The notes beneath the pieces were generated by a model, which was not told the origin of the DNA, did not search any database, and saw nothing but the letters and a program-made list of their open reading frames with translations. From assembly GCF_052425735.1 (NCBI RefSeq), contig NC_135759.1, positions 29,760,001-29,824,000 on the forward strand: a DNA stretch of 64,000 bases. Direction: 5' to 3'. The position numbers and the translations under genes are program-made. Positions 3,820 through 43,604 of this stretch are shown in pieces. Source of the stretch: Oculina patagonica. Lineage: Eukaryota. The number at the start of each line of letters is the position of its first letter. Position 1 is the stretch's first letter.

Positions 3820-6800
3820 CAAAGTTCTAACGATTAAAAAAACACACTAAGGTTTTCTTTTTGGAATATCTCATTCTACCTAAGACGTCATAAATTCTAA
3901 CAAATCCACCGTATTGGATCCTCCATCTTAGATAATAACAATTTAAATTATATTTTTGTAATATCCAGCCTACAATTGGATAATATAATTAATTTGTGTA
4001 ATTGATTTCAATTGACAGATCTGATGAGCAAATTAGAATCTGACGACTTCGATGACATTAATGACGCAATCACTCCCCAGTCCCTTGGAAGATGCAAAAC
4101 GAATGTTTTATTTACAGCATTTAAGGTCTGAGTTCGAACATGCAAACAATAAAATAATTGTAGCTCCACTCATGAGAGTACAGATGTACAAGCCGTTTGA
4201 ATCAGCATGGTTAAAAGTTATGTTGTTAACACTACATACTCATTAAAGCAAAGATTCATTCGCGCCGTAGACTAATTGGCTCTTCTATAAGTAATGTAGA
4301 AGCTTTAAGCTTTCGTTACGATCTTGAACCCAAAGTATTGCCAAATTCCAAAGGATCATTAGCAGATAATGTAACACTGATACCGGGCTATTGTTGGTGG
4401 TTTCTGTGTAAGTTGAACTTCCCCTCACTATATCCAGAAAAATCCTGAGGACTGGCATTTTCTCTCATAATACTTATTTTCAGGTGAGTGGGTTCCTTCA
4501 GGACAAAGCTCGGCAAGAACGACCAGATGTAGAGGAGCTAAAGAAGTTAGCAAGTTCTGTGGACGAGTTTACAACAAGCTTGATAGATCCACTGAAGTCG
4601 GACAAACCATCACGGGAAGCCTTTGGTGATTCTCTTGACTCTATTATAGACAAGGCCATTGAATATAAGCAGATGAAGGTAAATATACCGACATATATAT
4701 TTAAAAATAACGCATTATTACCCTGAATTGCAAATAATGCTACGTTTTCATAAGGATGGCAGCAACTTGTTTTAACCATGAAGGTTTCCTTTAACTGTAA
4801 ATTCGGAACTTTTGGATCGTTACTTTTAGATATTATTTAAAAAAAAAAACATTCACCCAACATGATTGCGTGGAAGGCCAACGAATGGGGATAAAAGACG
4901 TACTACTGTATAAATCAATAACTCACCTTCCATTTCTGGGGGCGCGGTGACCGAATTGCGGATTGTTAGTGCGCTGGGCTCCAGATCGAGGAGTCTGGTT
5001 CAAGCTCAAGCCGGGGGTCACTGCGTTGTATAATTGAGGAGGACACTTTACTCTCATAGTGCCATTCTCCCCCAGGTGTATCGTGTGCCGGTGAATTTAA
5101 TGCTTGAAGGTAACCCTGTGATGGACTAGCACCCCATCCAGGGAGGCGAAGAAATACTACTAGTCGCTTCATGCTACGGAAATCTAAATGAGCTCCGGCC
5201 TGATGGGCAATTATGCCCGTAGGCAGACTTACTAAACCTTTTCTTTTGCATTTCAGTTTATTTCTCATCCTGTTGTATACAACTTGCTAGACAAGCGTTG
5301 GATAGGACAGTTCTATGCTTGGAAGTCTCACTACTGGAGTTGGGCATTCATGTGGTTTTGGTGTTTCTTGGAGGTGATTCTGTTTCCGTTCATATTCGCC
5401 ATTTTCTACGTCAGGGACAAGGCAAGAATATGGATAAGGAAATATCAAGGTTTGAAACACTCTTTTGCTTCAGATATAACTATTTCTCGATACCAGCAAA
5501 ATCTGTACATGTAACTTTAAGTTACCGCCGCAATTTATAGTTGTGTCTAACAGGCACGATCATTTCGAGCAATGAACAACATCGCAAGGAGGAGCTCGTG
5601 TAAAACTTTCGTTTAGCCTCGTGGAAAAATTAATGCTCATGACCTAAAATAAAGTGCCAATGGACATTCTTTATCTATTTTATCCACGATGAATCATTGA
5701 GTATGAGAAAAATAAAGATCTTGAATGCATTGCCCGCTCGAAACCTTTGAAAAAATGAATTTTGTGTTGAAAGCGAAGTGTTAATTCTCCATGGTTGGTC
5801 CGCCTGTGCCGTCTTACAGGTTGTTTTGGATCAAAATAAGTACTGTTCGTAAGGCAATTTAATTCATAGTCATACTTTATTCTTCGTTTTGCATACAAAC
5901 CAGTGTCAGCATTGATATTTCTTTTGAGAACCGTTTTTTTAATAATTTTTTTTATAGATTACAGCATCTGCTTCATCCTTCATACCGAGGGAAAAACTGG
6001 AGACGAGAGCTTTAATCTTATGAAGCAATGCATGTCGCGAGTCATTCATCAGTGCGGAGTCAGATCTGTTAATTATTGCGTGATCAGCAGTATGCAAGGA
6101 GAAGCATACCAGCATGTGGCATTCCAGAGGCAATTTGATAACGAATGTTCACTGGTAAAGAAAATTCTAGCGATGGAAAGGGACACTAAACGAACGCGTG
6201 CGACAATTGACGATGACGTTCAAGAAGCATTAATCGTCTTTGAGGGTCAGACTGCAAGAAAGAAGGTTTGTTCTTATGAAAGTAAACGTCAAACACATTG
6301 ACAACAACAACAACAATAATAATCAGAGATTAACAAATAAATGATGGACTTTTAAACTGAAGGAATGACAATGTCTTATTACACGGTCTAATAATGCGGG
6401 GTTTTTTTTCTTGTCGACAGATTCTTTTCTTGTTTACTAATGATACGTCAAGTTTGCACGGCCAGGCTCGGTTAAGACACGGAAAATTAGAATTTGATGC
6501 CAAGAAACTTAGAAAAGAACTGGAAGTTAAAATTGTGCCCATCGCCATAGGAGATAGTGCTTCTGTGGACGACCTAAGGGACATTGCTTCAATACCCGAC
6601 CGTGCTATCTCAGGCAGAGTGAGCGAGGATCCTTCACATTTGGGACGTAAACTTTTAAGAGGTTGGTTCGTGCTTTTAGTCCTCGTTAAAAATTAAAATG
6701 TTGCACTTAAATTTAGAATACTTGTTTATACATTAAAGAGATACGAAAACCGCAAAAAAACCTGTAGGCTGGATAGACACTTTAAGTCTTCCTCCAAAAG

Positions 6801-9800
6801 AAATTTAGTATAAAGCACTTTGTATCATGTATTTTTATTTTGGGGAAAATATTAAACTGAAAAATGAAATGAAATATTTATCTGGCAGGAACTGCAATCC
6901 TATGATGTTTTTTTTAAATTTTTAAAAGTGCATTATGTTTATAGTTTTACTTTTTTACTTTTTTTAAGAAGAGCATTGTCGCCGTTGTTACACAAGGCAT
7001 GTTACTATTACTTCAGAAATAATAAAACATCTTAGGGCGGATCTAGGGGGAAAGGTGCAGGGGATGGCACCCTCCCCCCTCCCTCCTGAGATGACCTGTG
7101 GCTTTCTAAGACTTTCTAATACTGGTATTATTCAGAAAAAAATGTGGTTTATTGGTGAACCCCTCCTAAGAAAAATCCTGGATCGGCCCCTCAACTTACA
7201 ATCAAGATCTCATTATTTGCAGATGTCAATGTAACCTTGTAAAAAAATAGTTTAAAATTTACACTCAATTGCTGTTGCTGTTTTCTTTTAATAGTGGTTT
7301 ATGGAGCCAGTTTTCGTGGTAAGAATTATTTTTTTTTATCTTTTATCCCTGTATAGATAAAATTCACTCAAACAATTTATAGAATTTTTTAATTACAGAA
7401 ACATGAATTTTCTGTTTTCAGTGCTATTTCCTCCTATTTAATTATAATTTAAATAATTGCGTGATTCCCAGTCAACACTTTCTGTATGTAACGTACATAA
7501 CAATATCGATGAAATGTCATCGCGTGTATCATAAATTAATTCATTTTTGACTAAAACGTTTTAACCCTATTCAGACCGGGGGGGGGGGGGGCTTTTGAGG
7601 CCCGCGCTCTCTTTGAACTTTTATAACTTTTTTAAGATTTAACCAAACGCTGCCAAACTTTCTGAGTTTTCCTAAAATTTATCTGGCAACAAATTGTTAG
7701 GGATGGATGATGTGTCAGGAACTTGACATCACCATGGCAACGGCATTTTGACAGGCATGTTTTCCCAAATTTGTAATTTTGCGTGTTTCTGTTAATAAAA
7801 ATCAACTTAAATGGCATTATTTTTACATTTTTACGGGTTTAAAGCACATTTTTATTCATTTTGAGTACTAAGCAATGATTTTGGGTGGTTTTCTGGCATT
7901 TTGGAAAAATTTTTAAATCCAAGATGGCGGATCCAAGATGGCGGCTGTTTTGACATCATGATGTAATTGTCACGTGATGTGACGTCACCATCCCACGTGA
8001 CGTATACCAAAAGAAAGAGTTTTGGACGTACAATACATCCTATAAGTTTCATGGTGATTCCTTAAGTATTCTGGAAGTTACATAGGGGGGCTTCCGAAGC
8101 CCCCCCTCCCCCCGGTCTGAGAAGGTCCAAAAAAAGCCCGGTCTGAATAGGGTTAACACTTCACATTGAAGAAGTATCCGTTCATTGCTATAAAATCTTC
8201 TCCTTTCCTTAAAAAGGTTTTACCCTTGCATGATTTGCCTTATTAACCCGTGTAATAATCGATAAAAATAACAGCAATATCACTACTGTTAATTTCAGAG
8301 CTGTACCTTGATTACTACGTTACGCCGTACTTCATATTTGCAAGAGACACACTGAGCTACTTTTCCCTGCTTGGTCTTCATGTTGCCATATGTCTTTCCC
8401 CATCGGTCAATACCTTCACTATGGTGGAATGGGCCATTCTGGTGTTCTTTGTGGGCCGTTTCGTTGTGGAGCTCGATCAGTGCTTTAAGAGTGCACCTAA
8501 GGAGTTATCAGCCTCCATGCAACAACAGGCAGCAAGACCAACACATCTGAAAGTCAAGTCAATGGCATCACGAATGCTTAACTCATATCTAAGGTACGTA
8601 TGGTAACAGAAGAATGCGGAACATAGCTCAAAAATGAATTAATTAGGAAAGAAAAGTTTTCTTAAACTTAATGATTGGAGAATGCATCAACTTGGAAAAT
8701 ATGTTTTCCGTCTTAACCTTGATTCCAAAACGCTTTCTTTTCAAATCAAATGATGTAATCGTAGAAAGCTGCTAGGTTTAGAGCAGACTCGCTACGTTAA
8801 TTATAATTTTTTAAATGACGAAACCTCTCAGTCTTTTGAAAGTTCGTCTTCAGGTCAGCCATATTTTAAATTATGGATAACAGAAGCTCACGATGTCTTA
8901 TTAACCCTATTCAGCCGGGTTTTTGTTCAAAAGCCTGAGTCAACTATTACATTTAACACTATTTAGCAGAACCAAGTGGTCGACTATGATACTGTTTGGC
9001 TCACGATCCAAACAGGCACCTACTTAAGATCCAATGAAAATCCCGGCTTAGTAAAGTTTTATAGCCGTAACGTTATCATGATAGGAAAGTTCAATAAGTG
9101 AAGAATTACGTATAATGTAATAATTTATCTCCTAGTGATCGTTGGAATGTGCTGGACTTGATCACTCTTGTTGTCTACTTCATCACATTTATATTGCGTG
9201 TGATCACGTGGGGAATTTCCACACATGTGGCTGGAAACCGGCTGCTGGTTATTGCGCAATACTTGTATGGCCTCAACGCTACCATCTTGACTTTACGGGT
9301 GTTCGGGAGTCTTTTGGAAGCTAACAAAGGGACAGGGATTACCCACATTGCTCTCGTCAGCATTGTCGAAGACGTGGCGATCATATTTATCCAGTTTTTT
9401 GTGGGGATATTAGCATGCTCGTTGGCGATGACCAAAGTACTAATTGCCGAGCACTCTTATACGGGTGTTGACGAGGAAGTTGCAGGGTAAGAAAATTTTT
9501 TTTTTTACGAAAACCTATCCGCCTTCAGTGCCTTTTCCATATTCCTTGGTCTAACGGTTTTAGATTTTCAACGAATATTAAATTTTGACAAGCTACATAA
9601 CGGTTTTCTGCTGCCCAAGCTTAGCTCGTAAAGTGAATAAAACTGCTTTTTTAAAGATATCTCCGCAATGCGGTGATTCTTGATTCGATGAACAGAACCT
9701 TTCCTGCTTCATCATGACTGAGATAAGTCTTAGTAAATAAAGGTTTAATACTAACAATTTTCGTCATCACTGGCCTGAACTATGAACCGATTGCAATATC

Positions 9801-12800
9801 TTTCTTCTCTCAACAGAAAAGAAACTGAGAAAAATAAAACATTACGCTTTGGCAAATAAGACAATTACAATTTAATTACTGCAATCATAACTTAATTTGT
9901 TAATACTTTAATAAGTGATAATAATTTAATTTCTTTGTTTTTTTTTTATCTCAAGGCTATGCAGTGGCACTGGAATCTCTTGGTAATTTGATGTATTTTA
10001 AAAAATATATAATTCATAAGCGATCGAGCGAAGCATACTTAGGAGCTATTATTCCGTTCTGTTTGTAGGTTATACCAATAGTATTTATTTCTCACAGAGA
10101 ATTTTCCTTATTTGGTGGGCCACTATGATTGCAGCCCACGACCGACCGACCAGCTGACCGACCGACCGACCAACAAAGAAATTATTGAACAACGAACAAA
10201 CAATACGAGTAAATGCAATAAACAATCGAACAAACAAACCACGCTGTCCTTCTCTTTTTTGTTAGTCCCTTTTAAGCTAAATCTTATAACCATAAAACAA
10301 TCGCGTCACTTGCGGTGCTTGGCTTATTCATAAGTTTAGTATTTAGTAACGAAGTTTCTGCAGATAATTATTATCTCGTACTAACAATTATCTTTCCTTA
10401 TGATTGACTATTAATTTTTCTTCCGATTCAGTTGGTGGGAAATTGTTAAGCACCTCGGTTGGACACTTCTCGGCATTGCAGACGTGGAGCCCTTCACCTC
10501 GAGTGACTCGTTATCTAACAACATTGCGCAAGCACTGTACGCTGGCTTTATCATAGCAGCGCTCATTCTTCTGGTCAATATGATGATCGCTGTTCTATCC
10601 AGTACTTACGAGCGAGTAGAGGTAAGGGAAAGGCCTGACACCACTTTAAAATTTTCTCTCTTTTTTATTTCTTCGTTACGTCACAGTGAAACGTGTACCA
10701 TCTACATTATAGCGTCGGCAAGTGCCAAGGTCACTCTTAGCTGATTGGGGGGGGGCATTTTATTTCTGTTATTTATTCTTAAGCACATTTTCAATTTTTT
10801 TTTAGTTTTTTTTTTACGTTGTGTGGGCGTAAGGGTAATAACAAACGGGAAATGAATAAAGGAAATTCATGTCCCCGATGCTCTGCAAACAGTTAGAATT
10901 GTAATCTTTTTGCCTGGCTCAAAAACTTTTATTGAAAAAATGCAGTATGTAGTATTTTTTGTGGTCATATTTCGCTCCTCCGTTTTAAAGGGTAGATATG
11001 GTGCTCATTGCTTATGGAAACCTTAAAGGAAGCTTTGATTCTTTTGTTTTAGTTTCTACTGGGATATTACTTTTTCTCCGGCGATGATCAAATATACAGT
11101 TAACCCGAACTAATGTTTTTTGCCTTGTAGAGCAACTCGCTTAGAGAATGGTCTTTGAGAAAGGCCATCATTATCCGAACATTCAGCAACTATCATCCTA
11201 TTCCAGTACCATTGAATTTGATATCCCAGTTTGTAATGTTATTACTGAAATGCTTCAAAGCCTGTCGACGTAGATATGGCTCTCGCAAGTGTTACAGTCA
11301 AATATCTGACTCCGGAATCACATCCGAAGACGATGCAGCTAGTGTAGAGAAGGTAAAAAGGCTGTTTAACAAATATTTTCTGGTTTAGTGAGTAAATAAC
11401 ACAGTCAACTCACTCTAAGACGGACACAGTTGGGACCGACTCCAACTGTCCGTATTAGAGAGGTGTTCGTCTTATAGGGAGTTTAGTTACAGCGAAATGA
11501 CTGAAAAACGGCAGTGGCAGGACCAACAGCAGGTGTCCGTCTTATAGAGATGTCCGCTTAGAGAGGGTTGACTGTATACTAAAACAGTGGATAGCGTTTT
11601 TGGCGCGCACTGATTAGCTACTCAAACTCTAATTATACTTTGCTATTCACCTCCGAGCATCGCGCGCGAGAAAATTGTGACCTTTGACAAGAATAAACTA
11701 GTCGAAAACCGTCCTTTTTTTTTTGGGCTATATTATCTCACCGTTTTAGTATATACTAAAACAACAGTACTATTCACCTCGAGAGTGTCGGTGGCTAGCG
11801 GTGGATATTTACATCGCCGCTTCGCGGCTCGGTAAATCCTCCACTTCGGTGTATAGTTGTTAAATATTCATTATTAGAAAAAATAAGAGAAATGCGGTTA
11901 ACAATCCATATTAAAGATTTCTCTTTTAAAAAAATACATGTAGTCATTACTGCATGGGTAAGCGACGTAAATGCTCAAATCCGGCCTGACTACATTAGCG
12001 TCTATGGGTAAATTCTTTTCTGTGATTTAGGATGATTTTTCCAGACAATTGTCATGATTAGAGGCTCCATGAAGAAATTCTTGATTATGACCTTATATTC
12101 ATTGCTCTTAGGACAGAAATTTGGAGAGTATTCTCGATAAGCTGAAAGCCGTGTACTTTTCAACGCATGGATCCTCGTTCCCTTTAACAGGTAACAAATA
12201 CATTTTTGATGATGATGATGATCGTTATTGGGGGGGATTATTATTACTATTTTCAAAAACTCATTAATGTTGGTTGGGGGGGGGGGGGGGGGGGGGGATA
12301 TCATTAAGAAAATACAAATGAAATTAATGTTTAATGAGTGTCTCTATATCTGATAAAGATACAGCTAAATTTTGTCCAATTTTCTTGGCCAAAATAAACC
12401 AAAATCTAAATATTAGTGCAAATTAGATTGAAAATATCTACATCAGATGTTTTTGAAGCCGTTCAATAAACTCGCAGTTCGTGCTATATCGCGTCTAAAA
12501 CACTCGGCTGCGCCTCGTGTTTTAAACTTGATAAACCACTTCTGCTTGTTTATTAAACATTCCTTTAACCTGCAGCTTATAGTTTTTTTTTTTCTGTTTT
12601 GTCCGTCCACATTGTAATCCGTCGGTGACGCAATCTGCAGGCCTGACACTAGTATACATAATCACACACAAGGCGCCCTCCAAGGCTGTGGCAGATTTCA
12701 AGTGATTTCAAAAGCATTACTGACGACAGTATAACTATGTTTGTAATGTCTTTAAGGGCCTATGGTTGAGTTCCAGCACAGTTTTTTTTAATTTGGTGGT

Positions 12801-28310: not shown

Positions 28311-31026
28311 CTTGAATAAGACAATGCACATGAATGGAATAAGTACAGATAATGACAAACAAGATCAAGATAAAGGTTTAAAATTGTCTAAGCAACGACG
28401 CCACGTTACAAAGAAACAACGTCTACATTTGGAGTTGCTGTACGTAGCATCACACACACACTTTGGACAAGAAACCTATTGTATTGCATGTTTAAAGGTT
28501 ATTATTAGTAGGATTTTATTTATGTGTATGGAAGCACCGTATATTAATATAAAGTGCCTTACCCAAGAACGCAACACTAAAAAGAGCTTAAACTGGGCCA
28601 ACGAAATTAACTACCTGTTTTCTTCATTCATCACGTCAAACTTGCAAATAGAATATTTTACGGTTAGAATTTGAAGGCAATATTTCTTCAAGTTATATAA
28701 TTAGAAAGATTCGTAGAACGATAATATTAGTAATTCTTAATAGAATGTCTTAAAAATAGTGTTTATTGTTACCCTTGATGATAAAACAGCACAGTAACAA
28801 CGCAGGTACGATAGCTTTCATCGCTTCTTCAATGCAAAGAACGTGTCCTCACAAAGCACTATTAGATAGAAGAACGAAATGTGACAAGGACTCTTTGAAA
28901 CTTCAGTTTTTCAAACAGATTATTTTCCATCCCCGGTAGAGGAAGACTGTCGTGGGCTAATTAAAAATACTTTTATCAGAGCAATTATATCAGAGTGAAA
29001 CCAGACAGTTGAGAGTATGCGGTGTATTAAATACACAACTCTGTGGCCCTAAATCTTTACCAAACAGAATATTAAAATATTGAAAAAAGCTGAACCGTGA
29101 AACAACAGTGTTTGAAATCACATGCAAGTGTACTACAAAACAGCTGTTTACTTACACAAAGTATATTTCACAATTTGGCAACTTTTCTTAAAACACGGGC
29201 TAACAGTCGCACTTTAAATTATTGATCGAAGATGACTCAGTTCTTTTGTCTATAGCTTTTCCATTCCTTAATTATAGCTCCCACGTTAACGATAACCATG
29301 AATCCGGTGACAAAAATGGAATAGGAATTAGAATGGGCGGCTACCAACTTCTACTTTGATACAAAAACTAAATTTTAAGCTTATGTCTAAAGATTGAAAT
29401 CTGTAAAGACTAACTTGCCTTGAGTAACTTCCAGACGATGTATACTTCACTGGGTGACGTTAGCCAATGAACTGAAACCACAAGGAATGGGAGACTAAAA
29501 GCCTTGCAGGTAAATGGCGTCTGTAACCAGCTATTGGCTGACAGCAAAGAAGCGTTTTACCTGATAACTCGCAAGAATGATCTGACAACGTCTTAATTCT
29601 CTTTTCGTAAAATTATTGTGGTTTTCATTAGCGCCTCAAACATCAACGCCAACGCAATGGCGCTTATGAGTTTACATGCTTACGACGATAGTAACAAATA
29701 AAAGTAAGCCACCAACAAGGAAATACTGTTTTGATTGATCGCCAAATTATTTTAACTAACGTCAAAGGAATGTGATGAATGCTGTGGAGAATTTCTAGTT
29801 CGAGCTAGGCACGGAGAGGGTTAATTTCGCAACAATGGATGTTATTCCGTGTACACGTATCCCTATGCCTTGAACCTTGAGCTCACGAGACAATGAATGG
29901 TGTATTTATATGCTCATTAAATATTCACTGGGAATCCATTTGCGACCTATTAACCTAATCTCTGCTGATGAACACCATTTGTTTGGCTCGAGTCTTCACC
30001 TGTTGATAATCTGTTGCGTCTTAACTAATGGGCAGGTGAATAATTGTCATGAGAGCATTGAGTTTGCTGTTTAGCTACCTTTGAACTGCTCTGTAATTCG
30101 TTATATATTTGTTAGACGCCTCCTCTTCTCTTATGTCGTTTTCTATTTTAGTGATTTTGGGGAATGATAAGATCTCTTCAATCATTTCCTTTTGGAATCT
30201 GCAAATGTTTTTTTACATCATGTGTCACTGGCAAAAGAATGGCCACGTACCGCATCTCAACTGGACCGTTCTGACAAAATTTTCTCAACCAATCTATGAC
30301 TGGAAACTGAAAGTGCCATGTAAAGATCAAAGTTTTTAAAAGAGATTTTGTATGGAAATGTCTACAGAACAATTTTTGGAGAAATGTTAAAGTACTACAG
30401 ACTTCCAAACTGTTCAAATAAAGTCATTGTCAACGAAATTGCTCGGGTAGTTATTGATGTTTCGATTCTTCAGTGCCGGAGGTTTTTATCCGATGAAACA
30501 GCCTCAAAGAGACTAAGTACTTTCAGTTTTAAATGTAATTTTAGGCCCATTGAAGGGTGTTAACAGGCTTAAAGCGAAACGTGCTTTGGACTAAGATAAT
30601 CTCCGAACTTTAAATTAGGCGAATGAGTCACCTTTCCATTGCAAACAGAAATATTTTGCTTGAAAATGACTGTAGATGCTGTGTTTATTGGAACTGCGGT
30701 TTCACTTCTTACAGTTCACTCCAATAATTCCTACAAGATCATTGCTCTACTTTGTTAGGTCTCCAAAGTTTAATGGCCATATATTCTGCCTTTGCTCTTC
30801 TTAGTTTCTTAACCAAAACGCACACAAGACAAGTACTTGCAAAAACTTAACACACCAGCTAGAGAATTTTTTCTAGAATGAGTAATGTTTCTCCTTATGA
30901 TAAACATTTCTTAGAATACCTATTTATATGTGTATTTTTTTATGAGGTCGGAGGTGACTTCTCCGTTCAAAGAAACGTCATTTCAAACAAAAGGTAGACC
31001 GATCATGCGATCTCAACCTAACCGGT

Positions 31027-31157
31027 AACCAATCGCTTTGCATCCAGAGTTTTCAATTAAATCTAAATATGGTAATAGTAATATTATCCTGACCTCTACT
31101 GGAAGGAGATCATTTCTTTGAGCTGTTGTTGGGCAAATCTTCGAACGAGCAAACAAG
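31027..31157 (+). promoter_or_regulatory. Core promoter and non-coding first exon of lysozyme-like copy A
   Basis: AACCAATC plus AATTAAATCTAAATATGGTAA block conserved with 35164-35205 and 41013-41055; GTAAG donor at 31158. Confidence 0.55.
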
Positions 31158-33101
31158 GTAAGCAATACACTAGTCTCACCATTTTTGGTTCAATCGGGTG
31201 CAAGAAAAGGCAAACATGTAATGTCATGTACAGAATTGTTGGTTATTGTACATGCTACACGGAGCAGTGGTTCCAATTCAATTTCAATTCAGGAATATTG
31301 TGAATAATAGATCGTCACCTACTTTGCGATACCCAGTAAATCGGAAGTTTCAAATTCAAATGTTGTGTTATACCGTACCGCGTACACAGAGCGAAAGCTA
31401 CAACCCTCCTGCATTATTGTGCTACAGCTGTATGAAACAAAAAACTGACTGTTGTCTATTTCTCCGTAAAGCTATCAGCTAGATTTTATGTGTGCACTGC
31501 GTGTTTTCGGGGAATGCACGACATAAGAGTGACTTCCGCTTTTATCATCAGTTATTTCTACTGAGTCATTTTAAACTTAATCAGCACTTTCAGAGACTTC
31601 ATTAAAGGATAAAATGTTGATTAATGTTGAAAACATATAACACATTGTTATGCTAAATAGTGGTTAGGAACGAAATTTCGATTCCAGAACGTACAAGTTT
31701 CAGGAATATAGTTTGAGGGAGATTAGTCGCGCTACTTTCACTTTCGACCGTGGAATTAAAACATGCCAAGCTCAATGTCGCACACGACCAAAAACAGGTC
31801 AATTTGAAATCAAAATAGAAGGGTAAGCTTGGGTAAACACATGCAATGGAAGGACCGTAAAGCCTAGTACATCGTCCTTCCGGGTTTATAATATGAAATA
31901 CAGTTTCCTATCTCTTTCCCGAGAAACAGTGTCACATAAGGCCAAATAAGGTCTTCATGCTTGAATTATATTGTAGTTTCCGTCATCATTTCATGTATTC
32001 TTTTATATTTCTTGCAAAATGTTGTGAATAGAAATAAGCAATTCTTATCATGCAAACTTAATTAGTTTGCTTATCATGCAAACTTAATTGTTATTGATAA
32101 ATCTATGGAAATATTTTAGAAATTTTGTGAGTCAGCAAATAATGGTTAAGGTCGCGGGGATACCAACAGCATGAATAAATCATGAGGGAATGCTTGACCT
32201 CATCTTTTAAAACGCTTATTTCTCAGCTGTTAGTGCCAAATTGGGAAAAAAGATTTTGTGGAGAGTTTGCGGAAGAGAGGAGACAGCACACTGTGATCTG
32301 TCAAACTAATCAGTCAATACCTCTAGAGTGTCATAACAGAAGCGGATTTTAATTTAAAGTTTGCCAGCAAGTTATGGCGGTTTAGTGCGCAAATTCAATT
32401 TTATGTCTTCTACCTCTCAAGCGTTTTTTAAAATTCCGCTTCTGTATGACACACTTCAGACATAGTTTACTATCTGCAGTGGCAAGTCATGAAGTTCTGA
32501 TCTGCGCTGATTCTCTGCCACAAATGTCGGAAAGTCCAATTGAGGTTTCCGAAGGTGTCCCGAGCTAAACGATCATTTGCAAAGGAGAGATGTAATATGG
32601 TAATATATCCACGCTATGATGAGAAAATGCGTTTTTAAATAGGACACGATTGTTATGCCGAATTTTTTGTGATACTCTGAGTTGCAGAAATATTCAAATT
32701 AAATGAAAATAAGCCAAAGACTTCCGCAATCATATGAACGTAATCGCCAAGTGTTGTTTTAAATTGGTTAAAATATCAAAGAAACGGGGATTTACAAATC
32801 ACGCGCACGCGCCCATATTTGTCCAGTCATAAATATCTCGTAAAGTTGTCGATGTCAGTCGTTGTGCCGTGCATACGCTTTAAATAAATGCATAATGATG
32901 AGCCCAAGGTGTCCCCCGCGACCTTAATGCATGCACTCGAGAGGAATGACATGCACAAACAGCAGCAAAGCTAGTGCTCCGCTGCTATGGTCGAAATGAC
33001 AACAAAATTGTCGTGACCATAATTGTAGCTGTCTCTTCAAAACATGCTTTAACAGAGTTTTCTTCCTGGTATCTTCTCAGGTTTTGAATTTCCCGGAAAA
33101 C

Positions 33102-34037
33102 ATGGCTACTTCACCAAAGGGAAAAGGAGCTTCCGTCGTTAAGGAAGTCGTAGACACGATAAACGGGTTAGGAATATTTGCAGACGATCACAAATTTCTT
33201 TGCCGTGTTGCATGGGTCGAGTCAAAATATGGAGAGGCGCCTGGTACATACAGAAGCGGTTACCATGGAGGTATTTGGCAGGTAAACGCCTCTTTTCTCA
33301 AGTTGTCCCTTCGTACGTAATAGTTCGTAGGTAGTAAGCTTTATTTAAGCCGATACTTCCTTGACGTAAAACTTTATTCTTATTTCTAACATAAAACGAG
33401 ACCTGGAAGGCAAAAGAATTTTTCGCAGGACACCAAGTCTATGTGTATGTGGAATTTTGCATTATTTATTTCTTTGCAGCCTTTCCAACCTTACTCGTTG
33501 TTTACATGCCGTGATTAGATATGCCGAGTGGAAAATAAAGAAATGAGGGTCGGCGAAAGTTGGTTTTGCACAATCAGTCTGTCACTGGTTAATAAAATCC
33601 CGTACGTTGCGCATTCTATGAAGTAATCGAAAGCGAAGATATTTAATTTATATGCCAGAAAATTACTTTACCATAGGATATATCTACCCGGGTCCTCTCC
33701 GGGCTGTCAGTTTATACGACATTTCTTTATTAACGCTTAGGTTGACAAGATTGGTTACCGTGAGACTGTTATACAGCAAGGTCTGAAGAAGTACCGCGAC
33801 CAAATTCAAGCTAAACTCGGCATCGACTGGACCGAGACTGAATGGGAAGACTTGGAGAAACCGCTGTACTCTGGACTAGCTGCTCGGCTGTTTCTTGCAA
33901 GAATTTCCGCTCCTATTCCATCAGATCTTCCTTCTCAAGCTCAGTACTGGAAAACTCACTACAACACTTCAGCTGGTAAAGGAACTGTGCAGAAGTTTAT
34001 TGAGGATGTGAAGAAGGCAACAGGTTGTGCTGCCTAG
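33102..34037 (+). CDS. Lysozyme-fold (GH23/SLT-like) protein, copy A, 158 aa, no signal peptide; exons 33102-33281, 33741-34037
   Basis: MATSPKGKGASVVKEVV...FLCRVAWVESKYG...YHGGIWQ|VDKIGYRE...KPLYSGLAARLFL...YWKTHYNTSAGKGT...GCAA*. The ES, GIWQVD and YN motifs occur in lysozyme-superfamily order; phase-0 GT-AG intron. Confidence 0.85.
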
Positions 34038-34933
34038 ACTAGACAGGATCCGTACTGTAACGTCTTAAAACTATAAATAACACAGCTCGCAATTCAAAAG
34101 GTTTAGTCAGTTGTCATGAAATGCAATTCAAGGTTAAATTACCAGAATTATTCTTTTCCTAAGAGGTCTAGCCTTAACGTAGTCTAAGGTATTTGTTTAA
34201 AGAATAATTGTAAAATGAAACACAAAATGAAATAAACTTTGTATACGCTTGAAGGAAATGCTTTGACGTTTCATTAGTTTCCGGTCACGCCATATTTTAG
34301 AAAGCTGTCGACCTTAATAATGCTATATCTAATCAACAGTCTGATATTGCTATGGCCTTCTTCAAGTATCAAATAAACTTCAGCATACATCCTTACCAGA
34401 AACAGCTTATTGCCAAATATGCTTACAACGCTATCAATATCTAGAATCTTACTATGGAACGTATGATATAAAACCGAAAGACATTTTTAAAAGCTTCGTT
34501 GAAGCAATAAAAATAATCTGACAAAATGTCCAGAATCGAAAGACAATAAGATGCTAGTTCTTGCAGCCATCTTGCGCATGTATGGCCGTTTGTTATCGTT
34601 GGGCACCACTCTAATTCAGTTGAGTTAAGGTTAAATTCTGTTCGTTATAAAGCGTGAATTATATGCGGAAATTGAAATACACAAAAGTTCAGGGGATGTC
34701 TTATTATATTACTTAATGTGTGGTAAGCTGCTTACCTTGAATACTGACGAAAACCGCAGTGCGGTCTGATATATTCGAATATTATTAAACTAATTCAAAC
34801 GAGAAAATCATTTAGTCGGTAAGTCAATTAATAAATCCAACTGAAATTTTATGTTTTTAATACACATGCATGTCACGCAATGCTGTTTTCCTAAATAGTG
34901 TTTGGTCTCATACGTACGGTAACTGAGACGACT

Positions 34934-35292
34934 TTTCGGTTTCAAAACACATCATCCCGTGGAAACTGAAAGTATCTCGGGTCATGCTATAGAAACAAAG
35001 ACACAACAAAACAAAACAAATAAAAAATCAGAGAACTCTTTTGATTGGTTGATTTGGTTGAATGCAAATATCTAAACCGGAGACCTGTCTGCATGATCGG
35101 ACCTATTTTAGCAACACGTCATTCCGAAACTGAAAGATATCACTGGTCCGACTACTCCAAACAAACCAATCACTTTGAGTTCTGAATTAAATCTAAATAT
35201 GGTAAAGATATCGATGTTATCGTAAAACCAGTTCTACCGAAAGAAACAAGTTCATTCCTATTTGAAGAAACTTGCGAGCAGAGGAACCAGAG
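34934..35292 (+). promoter_or_regulatory. Promoter and non-coding first exon of copy B with three IRF/ISRE-type GAAANNGAAA motifs
   Basis: TTTCGGTTTC 34934-34943, GAAACTGAAA 34962-34971 and 35126-35135; CCAAT and TATA-like block 35164-35205; donor GTAAG at 35293. Confidence 0.5.
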
Positions 35293-36584
35293 GTAAGAAG
35301 CATGCATTTAAAATCAATTAAGATCGAATCATGTGGAAACTAGAAGGTTAACCTTTCCTATTTTGTACTTTTTGCCTACAGCCGTCCCGGCGGCTAGTTG
35401 CTCAGTATTTTGGAAACGATTTCTGTATCTAAAACATTTATATACCTTCCGCTTGTTCGCATACTGTCTTCTACTTTTTACCGAGATATGAATATTTCAG
35501 TGCACATCGAAAAGAGTCAGACTATATAAATCTTTATTGTATACGTATGCGAATGACCAGCAAAGAGCGAGCCCACACAATTAGTCCCGAACACTATACA
35601 TGACATGCCAAAGTAGGGCCACCACTTCAAATTTAAAACTTTACTTAGATGGTAGGTTTGAGTCTTTCGGTTTTCCGTACGTTTCACCCAAGTTGATTTT
35701 CACAGATAATAGTAAGGTCACTGATTTGTCCCTATTTCAAAACATCTTCCAAAATGCATAGATTAAATTAGTTCGCACAATTGAAACCGGGCAAGATACA
35801 TGACCTTTACTTCCGTGTTTGAGAAAGCGCGTGGCTTTCATATGGTGATAATATCTATTTTAGCATGGTACGTCACTTTTTTCTTGGTCCAGAAAAATAC
35901 ACGACTTTCTCATTTCGTAATCCTCTTTTGCAACTAACAATCATAAAGTCAAAACGTTTACTCAAGTAGAATTCCTTAGGGGATCGATTCCAACCATCGG
36001 AAACTGAAAATAAAGAAATCCACGAAATGCACAGTAGCTCCTACCGGTTGTTCTACTCGACTGTGAAATTATCTAACAGCGCTCTATTTTTTTCTAAAGA
36101 CGCTTAAACGCCCATCCGATAATTGTTCCTTCGAATCGATCGAAATATGACAAAATTTTTGCTCTCGGAATGAGAAGTTATTAAACGGATGAGCAGGTGC
36201 AGAGAAATAAACTGTCCCTTTAATTTTAATCCTGTGTAAAAGATTTTTGTAATTGTGTTTTAAAAGGTAGGTTTTTGTGACATTCGAGAAAAAAGTGATG
36301 AGGAGGTATCTTTGTTATCGTTGTTCAATAATAACAATTTTCCGCATCTAATTCACTTTCAGAACACTGCCAGTTAAGTTATAAGTTATAATTAAACTGA
36401 GGCAGTGAACGTAAATAAAAATCAAACATAAAGTTGGTCTGAACTAGACTTCCTAAAGTGCACAGTTTTTCCCGCAGAAGCACATTAAAGACAACAACGG
36501 CTGCAGCAGCGACAGCAATAACAACAACAACCGACTAAATAAACAGAACAGTGACAGTATTTTTTTGTCTTTCCCTTTCAGACA

Positions 36585-37647
36585 ATGTTTCTGGCAGCGG
36601 TGTTTGTCGGTCTGGCCGCTCCGTTTTTTCTTGGATTAAGTATGGCTCGTGCTAGTCCATACACACCAGGAGATAAAGGAAACGCGGTAGTTACGGAGGC
36701 CGTGAACATTATCAATGGCTTGGGAATATTTCCAAATGATCACAAGTTCCTCTGCCGTGTGGCCTGGGTTGAGTCAAAATACGGACAGGCATCAGGTACC
36801 TACAGGCCGGGTTATCATGGTGGAATTTGGCAGGTGAAGATTCTTAGATTGAATTATTATATTCATGATTCCTGTTTCATTTGTTGGGTAAAAAGGGGGT
36901 TAATGAAGATGCTTTGTCGAAAGAAGGTGCTTATTTTGGGAAAACTCACATGTTTTTTCGAGACTGCCATGTCTTATCTTATTTTATCTTATCTTATCTT
37001 ATCTTATCTTATCTTATCTTATCTTATCTTATCTTATCTTATCTTATCTTATCTTTTCATATCATGTCATGCCTTGTCATGTCGTGTAATGTCATGTCAT
37101 GTTATGTCACGTCACGTCACGTCACGTCATGTCATTTCATTTCATGTCATGTCATGTCATGTCATGTTATACTATGTTTTTGTAATCTAACTACGTATAT
37201 CACCATCATTTTATTTATTTGCCACTTCAGAATTACAATTACAATTGAAATTAAGTAAAAGTGGGGGAGGAAAAAAAATTGGGGGGGCCCGATAATTTTT
37301 TTGGTTACGGGTTAGTGCTGTTAGTTTACACTATCTTTAAACACTTATAGGTTGACTACATTGGCTATCGCGAGACAGTCATCCAGCAAGGTCTGAGAAA
37401 ATACTGGTTAAGAATCAAGGAGATACTTGGCATTGACTGGACCCAAACTGAATGGGAAGACTTGGAGAAACCGCTGTACTCTGGACTGGCTGCCCGGCTG
37501 TTTCTTGCCAGGCTTTCTGCTCCCATTCCATCAGATCTTCCTTCACAAGCTTGGTACTGGAAGACCTACTACAACACTGCAGCTGGAAAAGGAACTGTGC
37601 AGAAGTTTATTGAAGATGTGGAACAGGCAACAGGCTGCGCTGCCTAG
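36585..37647 (+). CDS. Lysozyme-fold protein, copy B, 181 aa, predicted secreted; exons 36585-36833, 37351-37647
   Basis: Hydrophobic leader MFLAAVFVGLAAPFFLGLSMARA; same motifs and intron position as copy A. Confidence 0.88.
36972..37168. repeat. Compound pentanucleotide microsatellite (TCTTA)n-(TGTCA/CGTCA)n in the copy B intron
   Basis: Visible directly; it produces the spurious LILSY/CHVMS tails in the ORF track. Confidence 0.95.
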
Positions 37648-39847
37648 AAGAGAAGGCTTATATAGCTAGGTACACCTAGCTACTAACCAGTAAATATTGG
37701 TCGATGTTTTTATCCATTAATAGGTAAATTTTTTGGGTGTTTTTTTTTTTTTTTTTTTATTAATAGGTAACTTTCATATTAATTAATTCGCTAACTGTAA
37801 CCAAGTGGATCGGCTAGATGAGTATGCTAATGAGTATTTTTTCATTTAGATTAACCTATGTTGTTTTGTTTCCTTGATTATTCAATCAAGATTGTTCATT
37901 CGACAAATCAAACTAAAATTTATTTTCCTACTTTTTTACCCTTTAATAAATAATAAAAAAGAAAAAATATGGTAGTTTATGTTCTGTCAGTAGTTAATAA
38001 GACTTCATTCAAAGGCACTGTTTCAATCATGTTACTCAGTTCTCCTCTTTTAATGGGACTCAAAAAAGTTTTATAAAGGGAGGCTACGCTCCGAGTTACC
38101 CTTTCACTTTTGTACAGTAGAAAGAATGCAACACTTTTTGAAAGTTTGCACTTGAAGAACGCCTTAATAGACTATCGATCAGCGATAAGGTGCGTCTATT
38201 CGAATATTTTAAAAGGCCTTTCCAAATACCGAAATGACACTTTTCATTGTCCCTATATAAACCCCAGCTCGTGAAATCCCTACCCTTTTATATACTTCCT
38301 GCCTGAAAAAGAAACCCGTTTCAGTCAGAATCTTCCATACGGTAGGGTTAGGGACTCCCACCCCTCTCTCGGGGACCTCCTAAAGTCCTTTAACCCCCCT
38401 CCCCCTCCGCATGTGCGAATATTCTCCATTTAGGGAGTGTTCATTATTTATTGTTGGGGGGGGGGGGAATTTTTATGGCTCCGCCTTCGATATCTTTATC
38501 TTTATCCCTCGGACAACACAGACTTGACGAACAGACTTGACCCCCCTCCTCAAGGGGGACCTTACAACTTCCACCCCCCCCCCTCAAATATTTTATAAAC
38601 AATGCAGTATTAACGGAGGTATTAACATTTAGAAGAAAACAAATTTAACAATCATTGAGCATGCGTTTGATATGAGATGCCAGATAGCCAATGAGGCGCC
38701 AAGCGCCAAGTTGGCAATAACTTTCTCATATCCAACAAGCGCAAGTGGAAAAGTTGTTTTATCGAAGACACCCAATGATTTGCAATATTTGTGCTCCCCG
38801 GTTGTTCTCACTGACGCATACACCTACCATATGTGTGGCCAATGGTATGTGAGCTCATATACCATGACCTGTAAACCAATACAAACTCAGGGATTGCGAC
38901 ATAACCTGGCTAGTTAGATATAGAAAAGACCTCGTTAAGAGTTTGACTTTCTCACCAAGTGACATAAACAGATTATGTACCCTTATTATCAACTTAATGA
39001 TAAAAAATTGGAACTGTGAAAAAATTAACTCTGGCAACACACTTGGTTTGTCACTGATCTTAAAAAAAATGCTTGGCCCATTCAGTACTGGTAGACATCG
39101 ACTGGTTTATTTATTTATTTAACTTGTTCCCTTAGTCACACATGTATACATTTGTATCAGGCTAGTTAGTTTGTTTGCTAGTTCACTTCATCAAATTAAA
39201 ACAAAGGAAATCATAACCGTGAAGGAAGTTTGGAAACCCGGCCTTAATTAGAATAGATTTTAAAGATTTTATTTCTCCGTTTACTCCGTAGTTTTTGTTT
39301 CGATTGAAAAGATATATCAAACACTCGAGACAGGCCATCCAAACACCTAGACGTCAAAAATACTCCGCTGCGCGTCGCATTTTCAACTCTTTCTCGGTGT
39401 TTGGATTGATGAAACACTGCTCCGTGTTTGATAGACAGTTACTTCCAAATTACTCGACTAACGCTTGCTTGAACCACCAAGGAAAGAGAAGCCCCCACCC
39501 CAAGACATAAATAATGAACACCCCCTTTAAGTGTACAGCATATTGTAAATGTCATGACGGCGTACGTTTTGATATGAATCTGGGTTATGGAATGAAAATG
39601 CTAAGATTTTTTTGGTTTGCCCGAAAGAAAAATGTCCAATATAAGCGGAATCTTAAATACCAAATACCCAGCCGGTATATCTGAACGGAAAATGAATGTG
39701 CTTACCGTATACGCGTATTTACCCAATACTGGAAAACACTAGTTCTTCTTCAAAACACATTAATTTGTCGTCTATATATTCTGAAAAAGTACACAATGAA
39801 CATACGAAGAGTATTTTTCATTCTCTATGTACTGAAACTATCAGCAG

Positions 39848-40174
39848 GTCGAATTATCGTGAAAATGTCATTCAACAATGTTTGAAGAAATACCGCGACC
39901 AAATTCAAGCTAAACTCGGCATCAACTCCCGGGCATCATGAACTGTACCGCGACTGAATGGGAAGACTTGGAGAAACCGCGGTACTCTGGACTTGCTGCT
40001 CGACTGTTTCTTGCCAGAATTTCTGCTCCTGTTACCTTAGATCTTCCTTCTCAATCTCAGTATTGGAAAACTCACTACAACACTTCAGCTGTGAACGGGA
40101 TTGTGCAGAAGTTTGTTGATGATGTGACGAGCGCAACAGGTTGTGCGGCCAGTCGCCTGAAAACTATTAATTAA
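39848..40174 (+). pseudogene. Lysozyme-fold copy C: last exon only, frameshifted duplicate of copy A
   Basis: KKYRDQIQAKLG and KTHYNTSA are A-type; a 17-nt insertion after GGCATC shifts the frame (TGA at 39939-39941); GKGT is changed to VNGI; the normal stop is lost; no ES-motif exon found upstream. Confidence 0.85.
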
Positions 40175-40315
40175 CTTCAGCATATAAATAGTGGCCACAA
40201 TCTTATTGCCAAATATGTTTACAACGCTGTCAATATCTATCATCTTACGGTAGAAGTGTATTAAAAGCCGAAAGAAATTTAAACTTAGCGAAACCATATA
40301 GTTGCAAAAAAAAAA

Positions 40316-40591
40316 ACACTTGTCAGGTTTGCATTTGAAGGACACTTGTAAGTCTAATTTAGGTACTGCGTTAAGGTCATTTCTTTGTTTGTATAAGCCT
40401 GGATTTTATGCGGCAATTAAAAGACGCAAATGTTGGGATGTCTTATATTATTTACACTTGTCAGGTTTGCATTTGAAGGACACTTGTAAGTCTAATTTAG
40501 GTACTGCGTTAAGGTCATTTCTTTGTTTGTATAAGCCTGGATTTTATGCGGCAATTAAAAGACGCAAATGTTGGGATGTCTTATATTATTT
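40316..40591. repeat. Perfect 138-bp tandem duplication
   Basis: 40316-40453 equals 40454-40591; the paralogous region near 34550-34715 is single-copy. Confidence 0.9.
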
Positions 40592-41012
40592 GCTCTGCGG
40601 TACGCTGCCACCTCGAATACAGACGTAAGCCGCCGTCCGTTCTGATATACTCGATATTGTACTAATTCATTCGTGATAATCGGTCAACCTGTAAGGTTTT
40701 GGTATTTATTGCATTAATTTAATTAAATTATGTCCTTAATAACATGCATATTACTAGTGATAGTGAACGTCAATGCTGTTTTCTTAAATTGTGTTTGGTC
40801 TCAAACGGTAACCGAGATGACTTTTCGGCTCCAAGACAAATCATCCCGATTTGTTCTGAAAGTATCTCGAGACATGCTATAGAAACAAAACATAACACAA
40901 CAAAACAAATAAAAAAAATCCTAAATGTTGATATTGAAACGAAACCTATCTGACCCGTTTCAGCAACGCATCACCCCGGCACTGAAAAATATCACTGATC
41001 GCCACTCCAGAC

Positions 41013-41147
41013 TAACCAATCACTTTGAGATCTCAATTAATCTAAATATGGTAAGGTTGTTGTTTTAAAACCAGTTCTACCGAAAGAAACGAGTTCATTC
41101 CCTTTATGAGCTGTTATTGAAGAAACTTGATAGCAGAGGAATTAGAG
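41013..41147 (+). promoter_or_regulatory. Core promoter and non-coding first exon of copy D
   Basis: AACCAATCACTTTGAG...TCTAAATATGGTAA...CCAGTTCTACCGAAAGAAAC...AGAG|GTAAGAAGCAT aligns with copy B 35164-35303. Confidence 0.55.
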
Positions 41148-42586
41148 GTAAGAAGCATACATTTAAAAGTCGCTTGAAATCGAAATTAAAGTTAATTCAG
41201 TTTAATTATCGAGCGTGCAGTTCAAGCAGCAATACTTAATGACATGTTTTTAATACCACACTTGGTGGTTCGTTTTCGAGGAAATTGATTGAGGCTTATA
41301 ACAAGGAATTGTAACTGAATTATTTTATTTTATTTTATTTTCCTTTGCAGACTAAATTAAGTTATATTAAAAAAATAAATAGGAATTTGCAGTTATCCAC
41401 AGAGTGGTTCTGCATCCACCGTTTCCAAATTGAATCAAGATGTGGAATCTTGTACTGTGGAAACGATTTCTATTAGTAGGAACGTTTGAGGTGCATTTTC
41501 GCATCAATTACTGTCTTTTATTCTTACCAAGATATGCACATCTCAGCTAGTGCACAAGAAAAAATGTCAGGCTGTAGAAATCTGTTGTAAACTAAAGTGA
41601 CCAGTAAAGAACCAAATAAGCCTCCCGAACACTAAACAGTGCATGCGAAACTAGGGCCACCACTACCTACTAACTTTCATTTTAATTTCAACAAATCATT
41701 GAACAACTTTACTCAGATGGCAGGTTTGAGTCTTTCAGCTTTCAGAACGATTCATCTAAAGGTTCAAGTTGATTTTCACGGATAATTGCAAAGTTACTCT
41801 TTTACTTCCTTGTTTGAGAAAGTACATGACTTTCATGTGATGATAATATTGGTTGTAGCATGGCATGTCGCTTTTTTCTTGGTGCAGAAAAAAAATGCAC
41901 GTCTTTCACATTTCGTATCAGGCCTCCTTTTCGATTATCAATTCTTCAATTCTTTAAGGGATCGTTCTCAGCCATCGGAAACTAAAAGAAAGAAAAACAA
42001 TCAACAACTATTCACCAAAGTAGAGGTGGTTAGTGGTTCGCGGCGAGGTGAATATCCACCACTAGCCACCGACACTGAGGTGAATAGTTGTTTTAGTATA
42101 TACTAAAACAGTGAGATAATATAGCCCAAAAGAATGATTTTTTTTACCAATTTATTTCTGCAACGATATACAATTTTCTTGTGCGCGTTGCTCGGAGGTG
42201 AATAGCAAACTAAAGGATATTCGGAGTTTGAGTAGCCAATCGGCGCGCGCCAAAAACGCTATCCACTGTTTTGTATATACTAATGTACACTAGCTCCTAC
42301 CCACTTAAATGTGAAATTATCTAAAAGCGCCCTATTCTTTTCTTTTAACTTACTTAAAAGTGAACCTATTCTAAACGCTGATTCGATAATTGATCTTTCG
42401 AATCAGTAATGGAAAATGTTTGCTCTCGTGAATAATCTCTATACAGAGTGGGAAATTATTAAACGAAGTAGCGGGTTGTCCACCGGCAGCGACATCAACA
42501 ACAAAAACAACAACAAAAACAACAACAACAACAACTAAAACTACAATAAACTGACGGGATCTTTTTGTCTTTCTCTCTTTCAGACC

Positions 42587-43604
42587 ATGTTTCAAAAAAC
42601 AGTGGTGTTCGTTGGCCTTTTCACTCACCTTTTTCTAGGATTAAGTATGGCTTGTACTGATCCATACACACCAAGAGGCAAAGGGAACGCCGTAGTTACC
42701 GAGGTCGTGAAAAGGATTAACAGTTTGGGAATATTTCCAAACGATCGCAAGTTCCTCTGCCGTGTGGCCTGGGTCGAGTCGAGATACGGAGAGCATCGTA
42801 ATACCTACAGGCGTGGTTACCATGGTGGAATTTGGCAGGTAAAGATATCACAGTTTAAGTCTTATTCCGTGTTCTAGGATTGTTGCTTTTCTTTGTCTTG
42901 TCTTGTCTGGGCGGGACTGGCACGTTTTACTGCGTATTTTAAAGGGAATATGTCGTGGCTAAATGTTTGCAAAGAAATTAATTATGTGATTCTAAATGAC
43001 AAAACCATAGCTTTATTTCAGCCAAATTTGTCTCCCGGGAGTATAATTTAATGTAACCGGCAGACAAGATAAACTTTGGAAACTGTTCCGCCGCACCATA
43101 TTTCAAAAACCCATATCATAATCCGTCTCAATCTTCGACACTTTTGGTCATCCGTAACTTCTTTTGCCATTTGGTGTGTTATTTAAATATTCCTTCACTG
43201 CTTTAAGCGGGTTATTTTATATATTTAAAAGAATTTGATGGTCATTTCCTATGCTTAAGTTTGGCTCAAATCCTTGACACGGTCCCTTTAAATGTTTATA
43301 GGTTGACTACGTTGGTTATCGCGAGACTGTTATTCAGCAACGCCTGAGAAGGTTCTGGAACAGAATCAAGGAGAGACTCGGCATCGACTGGACCAAGACT
43401 AGATGGCAAGACTTGGAGAAACCGCTGTACTCTGGACTGGCTGCCCGTCTGTATCTTGTCAGGATTCGTGCTCCTATACCGTCCGATCGCGATCTTCCTT
43501 CGCAAGCTCGGTACTGGAAGACTTACTACAACACTGCAGCTGGGAAAGGAACTGTGCAGAAGTTTATTAAAGATGTGAAGCGCGCAACAGGTTGTGCTGC
43601 CTAG
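42587..43604 (+). CDS. Lysozyme-fold protein, copy D, 184 aa, predicted secreted, strongly cationic; exons 42587-42838, 43302-43604
   Basis: Leader MFQKTVVFVGLFTHLFLGLSMA; VAWVESRYG, GGIWQ|VD and YWKTYYNTAAGKGT intact; many substitutions to Arg. Confidence 0.88.

What the first reader, a model, noticed from the sequence alone, without database searches (positions are those of the whole stretch)
30303..41988. IRF/ISRE-type motifs cluster around copies A and B and are all broken at copy D
Seen: GAAANNGAAA (either strand) at 30303, 31736, 34934, 34962, 35126 and 36000. At the four aligned positions in the copy D duplicate the motif is disrupted each time: TTTCGGCTCC (40823), TTGTTCTGAAAG (40851), CCGGCACTGAAAA (40976) and GAAACTAAAA (41978), while the CCAAT/TATA-like core is retained. 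Established: GAAANNGAAA is the IRF-binding consensus and cnidarians encode IRF factors. Inference: A and B are immune-inducible and D has switched to different regulation. Enrichment was judged by eye only.
Basis: partly seen in the sequence, partly recalled or inferred. Interest (0 to 1): 0.7.

Follow-up and report, generated by a model that had tools for sequence, protein, structure and literature searches.

The report
Conserved IRF site, coral lysozyme-like genes
In a stony coral, one of three duplicated genes for a predicted lysozyme-like protein keeps an interferon-type control motif that is conserved in other corals, while two sister copies have lost it, so that copy is likely switched on by immune transcription factors and its sisters are likely no longer controlled through that site.

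Summary
The window holds a coral tandem array: A, B and D (intact, spliced) and C (broken). They encode an unnamed protein predicted to have a lysozyme fold. All six listed sites fit the strict IRF element: 6 in 7 kb against 0.23 expected, and 4 of the 6 lie at B. The key site is 35126, 128 bases upstream of B's mapped start and beside a CCAAT box. It is intact in 4 of 5 promoters from other corals, where only 16% of flanking columns are invariant. The same element marks RLR-like, STING and GBP genes in this genome more often than Ras controls. D has lost it. However, D's changes are not concentrated in motifs (11/40 vs 270/1126, P=0.58), and four broken sites are expected 57% of the time from background divergence. 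A has also lost this ancestral site; its two listed sites show little or no conservation. Best reading: B is likely IRF-controlled, and D was released from that constraint while staying expressed and becoming strongly cationic. Inducibility is untested. This is a known kind of element on a gene family with no description found.

The parts
30303..30312 (+). Strict IRF-type site about 800 bases upstream of A's exon 1; no counterpart found in other corals
   Evidence: alignment scores 30 and 31 vs shuffled maxima 31 and 32
30984..30993 (+). Decayed remnant of the ancestral proximal IRF site in A
   Evidence: intact in the A-like promoter of L013
31029..31034 (+). CCAATC box of A
31110..34037 (+). 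Gene A: non-coding exon 1 ending 31157 (start approximate), CDS 33102-33281 + 33741-34037, 158 aa, no hydrophobic leader
   Evidence: splice joints in contigs of X5, X6, X10; intact frame; N-terminal hydropathy 0.97
31736..31745 (-). Strict IRF-type site in intron 1 of A; marginal match to an intron site in L019
   Evidence: score 39 vs shuffled max 34, motif included
34668..34677 (+).
34934..34943 (-). Strict IRF-type site, -320 from B's start; broken in D at 40823
34962..34971 (+). Strict IRF-type site, -292; intact in the L010/L013 B-like promoter, broken in L009, L016 and D; 13-base deletion here in a contig of run X5
35126..35135 (+). Proximal IRF-type site, -128: the evolutionarily conserved element
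35166..35171 (+). CCAATC box of B, -88
35254..37647 (+). Gene B: start about 35254, exon 1 to 35292, CDS 36585-36833 + 37351-37647, 181 aa, hydrophobic leader (likely signal peptide), core pI 6.9
   Evidence: adapter-marked 5' end in one X7 contig and splice joints
36000..36009 (+). Strict IRF-type site in intron 1 of B; one base deleted in D (41978); no counterpart in L013
39846..40150 (+). Copy C: broken remnant of the last exon only (17-base insertion against A, no match to the upstream coding exon)
40823..40985 (+). D promoter with three broken sites (40823, 40851, 40976); an X7 contig over 40553-40940 has no differing letter, so the first two are not assembly errors
41016..41021 (+). CCAATC box of D, retained
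41088..43604 (+). Gene D: exon 1 ending 41147 (start approximate), CDS 42587-42838 + 43302-43604, 184 aa, hydrophobic leader, core pI 10.45, net charge +19
   Evidence: splice joints in X9, X10, X6
41176..41185 (+). Loose (not strict) GAAANNGAAA in D's intron 1, absent from B; at background frequency (1 seen, 0.54 expected)

Best explanation
Copy B keeps a promoter module conserved across stony corals (IRF-type element at -128, CCAAT box at -88) that likely lets coral IRF factors drive a likely secreted protein with a predicted lysozyme fold, and copies D and A have lost that element. Shown: gene models, splicing, enrichment, conservation, direction of loss, and absence of motif-targeted change in D. 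Inferred: IRFs bind the element, probably with NF-Y on the CCAAT box, and raise B on pathogen sensing or in IRF-positive immune cells; the protein cuts peptidoglycan or chitin with its conserved glutamate. Also inferred: after the A+B block was duplicated to C+D, selection on D's IRF sites relaxed and they decayed at the background rate. D kept its core promoter and a constrained reading frame (dN/dS 0.31 vs B) and became strongly cationic, so it likely serves as a basal, IRF-independent copy.
For: Enrichment: 4 strict sites in 2.5 kb at B vs 0.08 expected. Conservation: across B and four intact promoters from other corals, 8 of 8 fixed motif positions and 6 of 6 CCAATC positions are invariant vs 32 of 200 other columns, and the motif is the only 1 of 207 windows with all eight invariant; the fifth outside promoter, L016, is broken and was left out of that count. 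Start: adapter-marked 5' end at 35254 (one contig). Genome context: 7 IRF-domain matches, 5 of 7 loci showing a W-K-x-x-F-R-C-A recognition-helix motif (role recalled). Strict sites within 6 kb upstream in 15 of 28 immune homologues (CARD_2 5/5, STING 2/3, GBP 8/18, viperin 0/2) vs 4 of 20 Ras genes, Fisher P=0.035; reversed word 7 vs 6 sites. IRF-gene upstreams hold 13 sites in 6 x 10 kb vs about 2 expected at the rate. Protein: pLDDT 97 model; the five best VIA matches (Z 8.2-8.6) are a glucosaminidase, two lytic transglycosylases, a lysozyme-fold chitinase and a muramidase; Glu43 conserved in at least 90% of 73 homologues. The B promoter matches only D in the genome, so it is not a dispersed repeat. 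IRF motifs are enriched at poly(I:C)-induced Nematostella genes (PMC8476169, passages).
Against: No binding or induction data. Single-IRF knockdowns had no measurable effect on cGAMP induction in Nematostella (PMC8713801). The motif+CCAATC module elsewhere in the genome (36 vs 12 for the reversed control; looser form 469 vs 314) led to a classical ISG domain in 0 of 29 loci examined. Neither viperin had a strict site. The -292 site is deleted in one expressed allele (X5) and broken in L009. Spliced B contigs in X5 and X12 begin at 34845 and 35132, upstream of or across the module, so starts vary or read-through occurs. Immune paralogues in the control are not independent, and domain starts are not transcription starts. 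No Foldseek match reached E 0.001, Z near 8 is modest, and Pfam gave no family for the six array exons.
Confidence: 0.6

Rival explanations
1. The conserved element is functional but gives cell-type or basal expression rather than induction, or is read by another GAAA-binding factor (PRDM1/Blimp-1, or NFAT at the GGAAA-containing sites; specificities recalled).
For: Conservation shows function, not the factor. Coral immune cells express NFAT and IRFs at rest (PMC8162421, passages). Spliced B contigs occur in 6 of 6 contig runs laid (treatments unknown). IRF knockdown was without measurable effect in Nematostella.
Against: The conserved site is a two-half-site GAAANNGAAA and lacks NFAT's GGAAA. 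The same strict word lies within 200 bases upstream of 5 of 5 CARD_2 genes.
Confidence: 0.22
2. One reading: A and B are both IRF-inducible, and D was actively switched to another regulatory input.
For: A has 2 strict sites (P=0.006), which could be compensatory turnover. D is expressed, constrained and charge-shifted. L016, another cationic copy (+12), also has both sites broken, by different lesions.
Against: No excess of change in D's motifs (P=0.58; local flanks P=0.43). No strict IRF or consensus kB site at D. A lost the ancestral site, and its own sites are not clearly conserved.
Confidence: 0.13
3. The motifs are chance products of A-rich DNA and duplication.
For: The loose word occurs 0.22 times per kb; the region was chosen after seeing the motifs; several individual sites are not conserved.
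Against: P about 2e-6 at B; none of 120 overlapping background 7-kb windows had more than 3 strict sites; positional conservation across species.
Confidence: 0.05

Closest known systems
IRF-E/ISRE promoters of vertebrate interferon-stimulated genes (consensus recalled)
   Same: Same GAAA-S-Y-GAAA word, several copies, promoter-proximal, on an apparent defence gene.
   Different: No interferon is known in cnidarians (PMC8713801); binding and induction are untested here; the target has no named family.
IRF motif enrichment at poly(I:C)-induced Nematostella genes (PMC8476169)
   Same: IRF-type motifs in promoter, first exon and first intron of cnidarian immune genes.
   Different: In the passages read, that was a bulk scan with vertebrate matrices. 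Here one site is traced across coral species and its loss is polarised in paralogues.
cGAMP-induced Nematostella 'lysozyme' LOC5512121 (PMC8713801, supplement row, log2FC 3.9)
   Same: A cnidarian lysozyme-labelled gene under immune induction.
   Different: Whether it belongs to this family could not be tested; no named Nematostella protein appeared.
Lysozyme superfamily (lytic transglycosylases, GH73, GH23) and phage family phrog_3108
   Same: Predicted fold and a conserved glutamate at the end of an early helix; near full-length phrog_3108 match, E 8e-19; matches in 15 phage records, annotated ones as hypothetical/unknown/Gp54.
   Different: 10-17% identity to the top solved enzymes, no Pfam family, activity unknown; intron-containing, with relatives in corals, anemones, a brachiopod, a sea star, an annelid and a mite.

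Membership tests
IRF-responsive (ISRE/IRF-E) promoter, copy B | Consensus GAAANNGAAA / GAAASYGAAA near the start site | tested here: met
   sites at -128, -292, -320
IRF-responsive promoter, copy B | Density above genome background | tested here: met
   4 vs 0.08 expected
IRF-responsive promoter, copy B | Site conserved beyond its flanks | tested here: met
   proximal site intact in 4 of 5 outside promoters
IRF-responsive promoter, copy B | IRF factors encoded by the organism | tested here: met
IRF-responsive promoter, copy B | IRF binding, and induction that depends on the site | not testable with these tools
   no treated raw reads or binding data
IRF-responsive promoter, copy A | Conserved proximal site | tested here: not met
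   decayed at 30984
IRF-responsive promoter, copy A | Other strict sites above background and conserved | tested here: inconclusive
   2 vs 0.11 expected; conservation absent or marginal
Regulatory neofunctionalisation of D | Changes concentrated in the motifs | tested here: not met
   11/40 vs 270/1126, P=0.58
Regulatory neofunctionalisation of D | Copy still expressed and constrained | tested here: met
   spliced contigs in 3 of 6 contig runs; dN/dS 0.31
Regulatory neofunctionalisation of D | A different expression pattern | not testable with these tools
   contig depth cannot rank genes
Lysozyme superfamily | Fold | tested here: met
   model of homologue P0002; list dominated by lysozyme-fold enzymes, best Z 8.6, rmsd 3.1, 111 aligned; Foldseek weak
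Lysozyme superfamily | Catalytic glutamate | tested here: inconclusive
   conserved Glu43 at the end of helix 35-44, present in A, B and D; residue-level match to a known enzyme not shown
Lysozyme superfamily | Glycan-cleaving activity | not testable with these tools
   needs an assay

The most novel reading that the evidence does not exclude
Stony corals have an ancient IRF-driven antibacterial arm: a phage-related lysozyme-fold family under a conserved IRF+CCAAT promoter. After duplication, lineages repeatedly split it into an IRF-inducible copy and an IRF-free, highly cationic copy (D here, L016 in another coral).
Probability: 0.2. Interest if true: 0.68.

Novelty: new member of a known kind. 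Interest (0 to 1): 0.45.

Why it matters
Whether cnidarian IRFs actually drive immune genes is open: motif enrichment says yes, single knockdowns said no. B and D form a natural matched pair, with 83% identical proximal promoters, one with and one without the conserved site. That makes the question directly testable by qPCR, reporter or binding assay. B is also a candidate immune marker and effector in corals, from a family for which I found no description.

Tried and rejected
1) Motif-targeted decay in D: rejected. 2) A genome-wide IRF+CCAAT regulon: 29 of 36 module hits were followed 9.5 kb downstream (own locus, two near-duplicates and four small-contig hits left out). 270 frames were scanned and none gave a classical ISG domain; hits included lipase_3, CABIT, RING, RWD, ABC, cadherin, 7tm, TFIIE-beta and mobile-element domains. 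Frame picking was heuristic, so this is inconclusive. 3) OAS1_C found nothing in the genome, which does not show absence. 4) Expression level: no RNA holder was listed on record. Two raw polyA runs laid only 5 and 6 partial reads, with no splice joints. B contigs were deeper than D contigs wherever both junctions were seen, but the tool states that contig depth cannot rank genes, so this is not used. 5) Consensus kB site: none in 29.6-43.3 kb; one looser palindrome at 38371; GAS-like palindromes only near A (30908, 33090). 6) Promoter as a transposon: rejected. 7) Literature: six homologue gene IDs were found in 0 papers; searches listed nothing on this family or site (titles and abstract starts only). 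The Stylophora cGAMP paper (Li 2023, Cell) is not held. The Kozlovski data archive was too large to read, and the paper reader closed before the Stylophora atlas supplements could be searched. These unseen tables may show whether homologue LOC111343018 is induced. 8) PDB sequence search: nothing below E 0.1. 9) Earlier scan notes: none. 10) Gene tree: B and D group at 87%; deeper nodes 46-73%, so duplication order across species is not settled. 11) Horizontal origin from phage: not tested.

Full report
Setting. The window lies in a 529-Mb genome (G000:C2). The array protein's named relatives are stony-coral proteins: Orbicella 90%, Desmophyllum 88%, Porites 80%, Acropora 72% over the last exon. 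Self-comparison shows four copies and a duplicated block: 34372-35919 aligns to 40169-41917 at 67-82%, so A+B gave rise to C+D. A, B and D have intact frames of 158, 181 and 184 aa. Contigs from likely RNA runs show GT-AG joints that confirm a non-coding first exon and two coding exons in each: B in 6 of 6 contig runs, A in 3 of 6, D in 3 of 6. C is a last-exon remnant. One X7 contig carries a template-switch adapter (recognised from memory) at 35254, which places B's start there. Two other B contigs begin further upstream.

Observation. All ten coordinates are right. The six listed sites all fit the strict recalled consensus GAAASYGAAA; the four unlisted matches in the span do not. Against 398.5 kb of the same genome (13 strict, 89 loose), A+B hold 6 strict vs 0.23 expected, B alone 4 vs 0.08, A 2 vs 0.11 and D 0 vs 0.08. 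Control words were not enriched there.

Loss in D. In well-aligned blocks, 11 of 40 fixed motif positions differ between B and D, against 270 of 1126 others (P=0.58). At that divergence four of four sites break 57% of the time. The pattern alone says nothing. What gives it meaning is the outgroup. Of 77 metagenome loci, 15 are coral-like, and these yield five distinct promoters (L010 and L013 duplicate each other). The site aligned to 35126 is intact in the L013 A-like, L013 B-like, L009 and L019 promoters and broken in L016, D and A. Among B and the four intact ones, all 8 fixed positions and CCAATC are invariant against 16% of other columns. So the site is ancestral and under selection. The -292 site is conserved in L013 but labile: broken in L009, L016 and D, and deleted in an X5 contig. 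30303, 34668 and 36000 show no counterpart, and 31736 a marginal one.

Does the word mean anything in this genome? It has 7 IRF-domain matches. I took 6 kb upstream of 18 GBP first-exon matches (from 38 exon-level matches), 2 viperins, the top 5 of 12 CARD_2 matches and 3 STING genes, and of 20 Ras-family genes (from 153 matches, one per cluster). Strict sites occurred at 15 of 28 vs 4 of 20 (28 vs 6 sites; P=0.035 and 0.009); the reversed word gave 7 vs 6. All five CARD_2 genes have a site within 200 bases. Six IRF upstream stretches held 1, 1, 1, 5, 5 and 0 sites. Paralogues are not independent, so the P values are generous. The opposite test failed: module hits genome-wide led to no classical ISG domain in 29 loci.

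The protein. No Pfam family for the array's exons. A model of homologue P0002 (pLDDT 97) retrieves mostly lysozyme-superfamily enzymes at modest Z (best 8.6; Foldseek weak). A conserved Glu ends helix 35-44. It matches phage family phrog_3108 and has relatives in other invertebrates. A-type proteins lack a hydrophobic leader and B/D-type have one, a split also seen in Orbicella and Pocillopora homologues. D's core carries +19 charge against about 0 for B, with dN/dS 0.31. L016, the other copy with broken sites, is +12; these are two cases only.

Mechanism. Most likely (0.6) IRFs act at -128 with the CCAAT box to drive B in immune activation or in immune cells. D's sites decayed once redundant, leaving a basal cationic copy, and A's regulation is uncertain. 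Binding, induction and enzyme activity are inferred, not shown.

Literature seen. PMC8476169 (passages): IRF motifs enriched at poly(I:C)-induced Nematostella genes. PMC8713801 (passages, searches of its three supplements, one supplement part): a lysozyme induced by cGAMP, with no measurable effect of single-IRF knockdown. PMC13319465 (passages, supplement list): shared Nematostella-Stylophora response including IRF2. PMC8162421 (passages): IRF/NFAT-positive coral immune cells. PMC9980059 (passages): nothing bearing on this. The kind of element is known in cnidarians; this conserved site and its paralogue-specific loss were not found in print in the searches listed.

Verdict. Observation partly confirmed, interpretation partly supported, new member of a known kind, interest 0.45.

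Noticed in passing
window 33102-43604: The gene family itself is unnamed, matches phage family phrog_3108 over nearly its whole length and occurs across invertebrates; origin and activity unknown.
   Followed up: partly
window 42587-43604: D is strongly cationic (21 Arg, core charge +19) against neutral B; A lacks the hydrophobic leader, suggesting intracellular versus secreted forms.
   Followed up: partly
window 34962: A 13-base deletion removing this IRF-type site in a spliced contig of run X5: a natural variant useful for testing.
   Followed up: no
window 40316-40591: Perfect 138-base tandem duplication upstream of D; recent duplication or assembly artefact.
   Followed up: no
L016 1545-2306; L017 378-862: Copies without introns; L016 is nearly identical to intron-bearing L021, so probably assembled from spliced RNA rather than a retrogene. 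L016's promoter has lost both IRF-type sites by lesions different from D's.
   Followed up: partly
L241-L248 (G000:C1:44.9-45.0 Mb, C2:10.9 and 12.6 Mb): All five CARD_2 genes and two of three STING genes carry strict IRF-type sites close upstream.
   Followed up: partly
L173 (G000:C4:5.01-5.02 Mb): Tandem class-3 lipase genes with four strict IRF-type sites in 2.5 kb.
   Followed up: no
L195, L196, L208: Two IRF loci with five strict sites each in 10 kb, and one GBP with six in 6 kb.
   Followed up: no
window 35116-35121 and aligned promoters: A CRE-like half site (GTCA) just upstream of the proximal IRF site is kept in most promoters, including A.
   Followed up: no
window 5870-10741: Exons with weak VWA and ion-transport Pfam matches, probably one or two unrelated genes.
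   Followed up: no
window 51380: An isolated strict IRF-type site near a 167-aa open frame with no Pfam match.
   Followed up: no
L005-L007 (G000:C11, C13, C5): Three more distant family members (33-56% identity) elsewhere in the genome; 0, 0 and 2 strict sites in the 10 kb fetched.
   Followed up: partly
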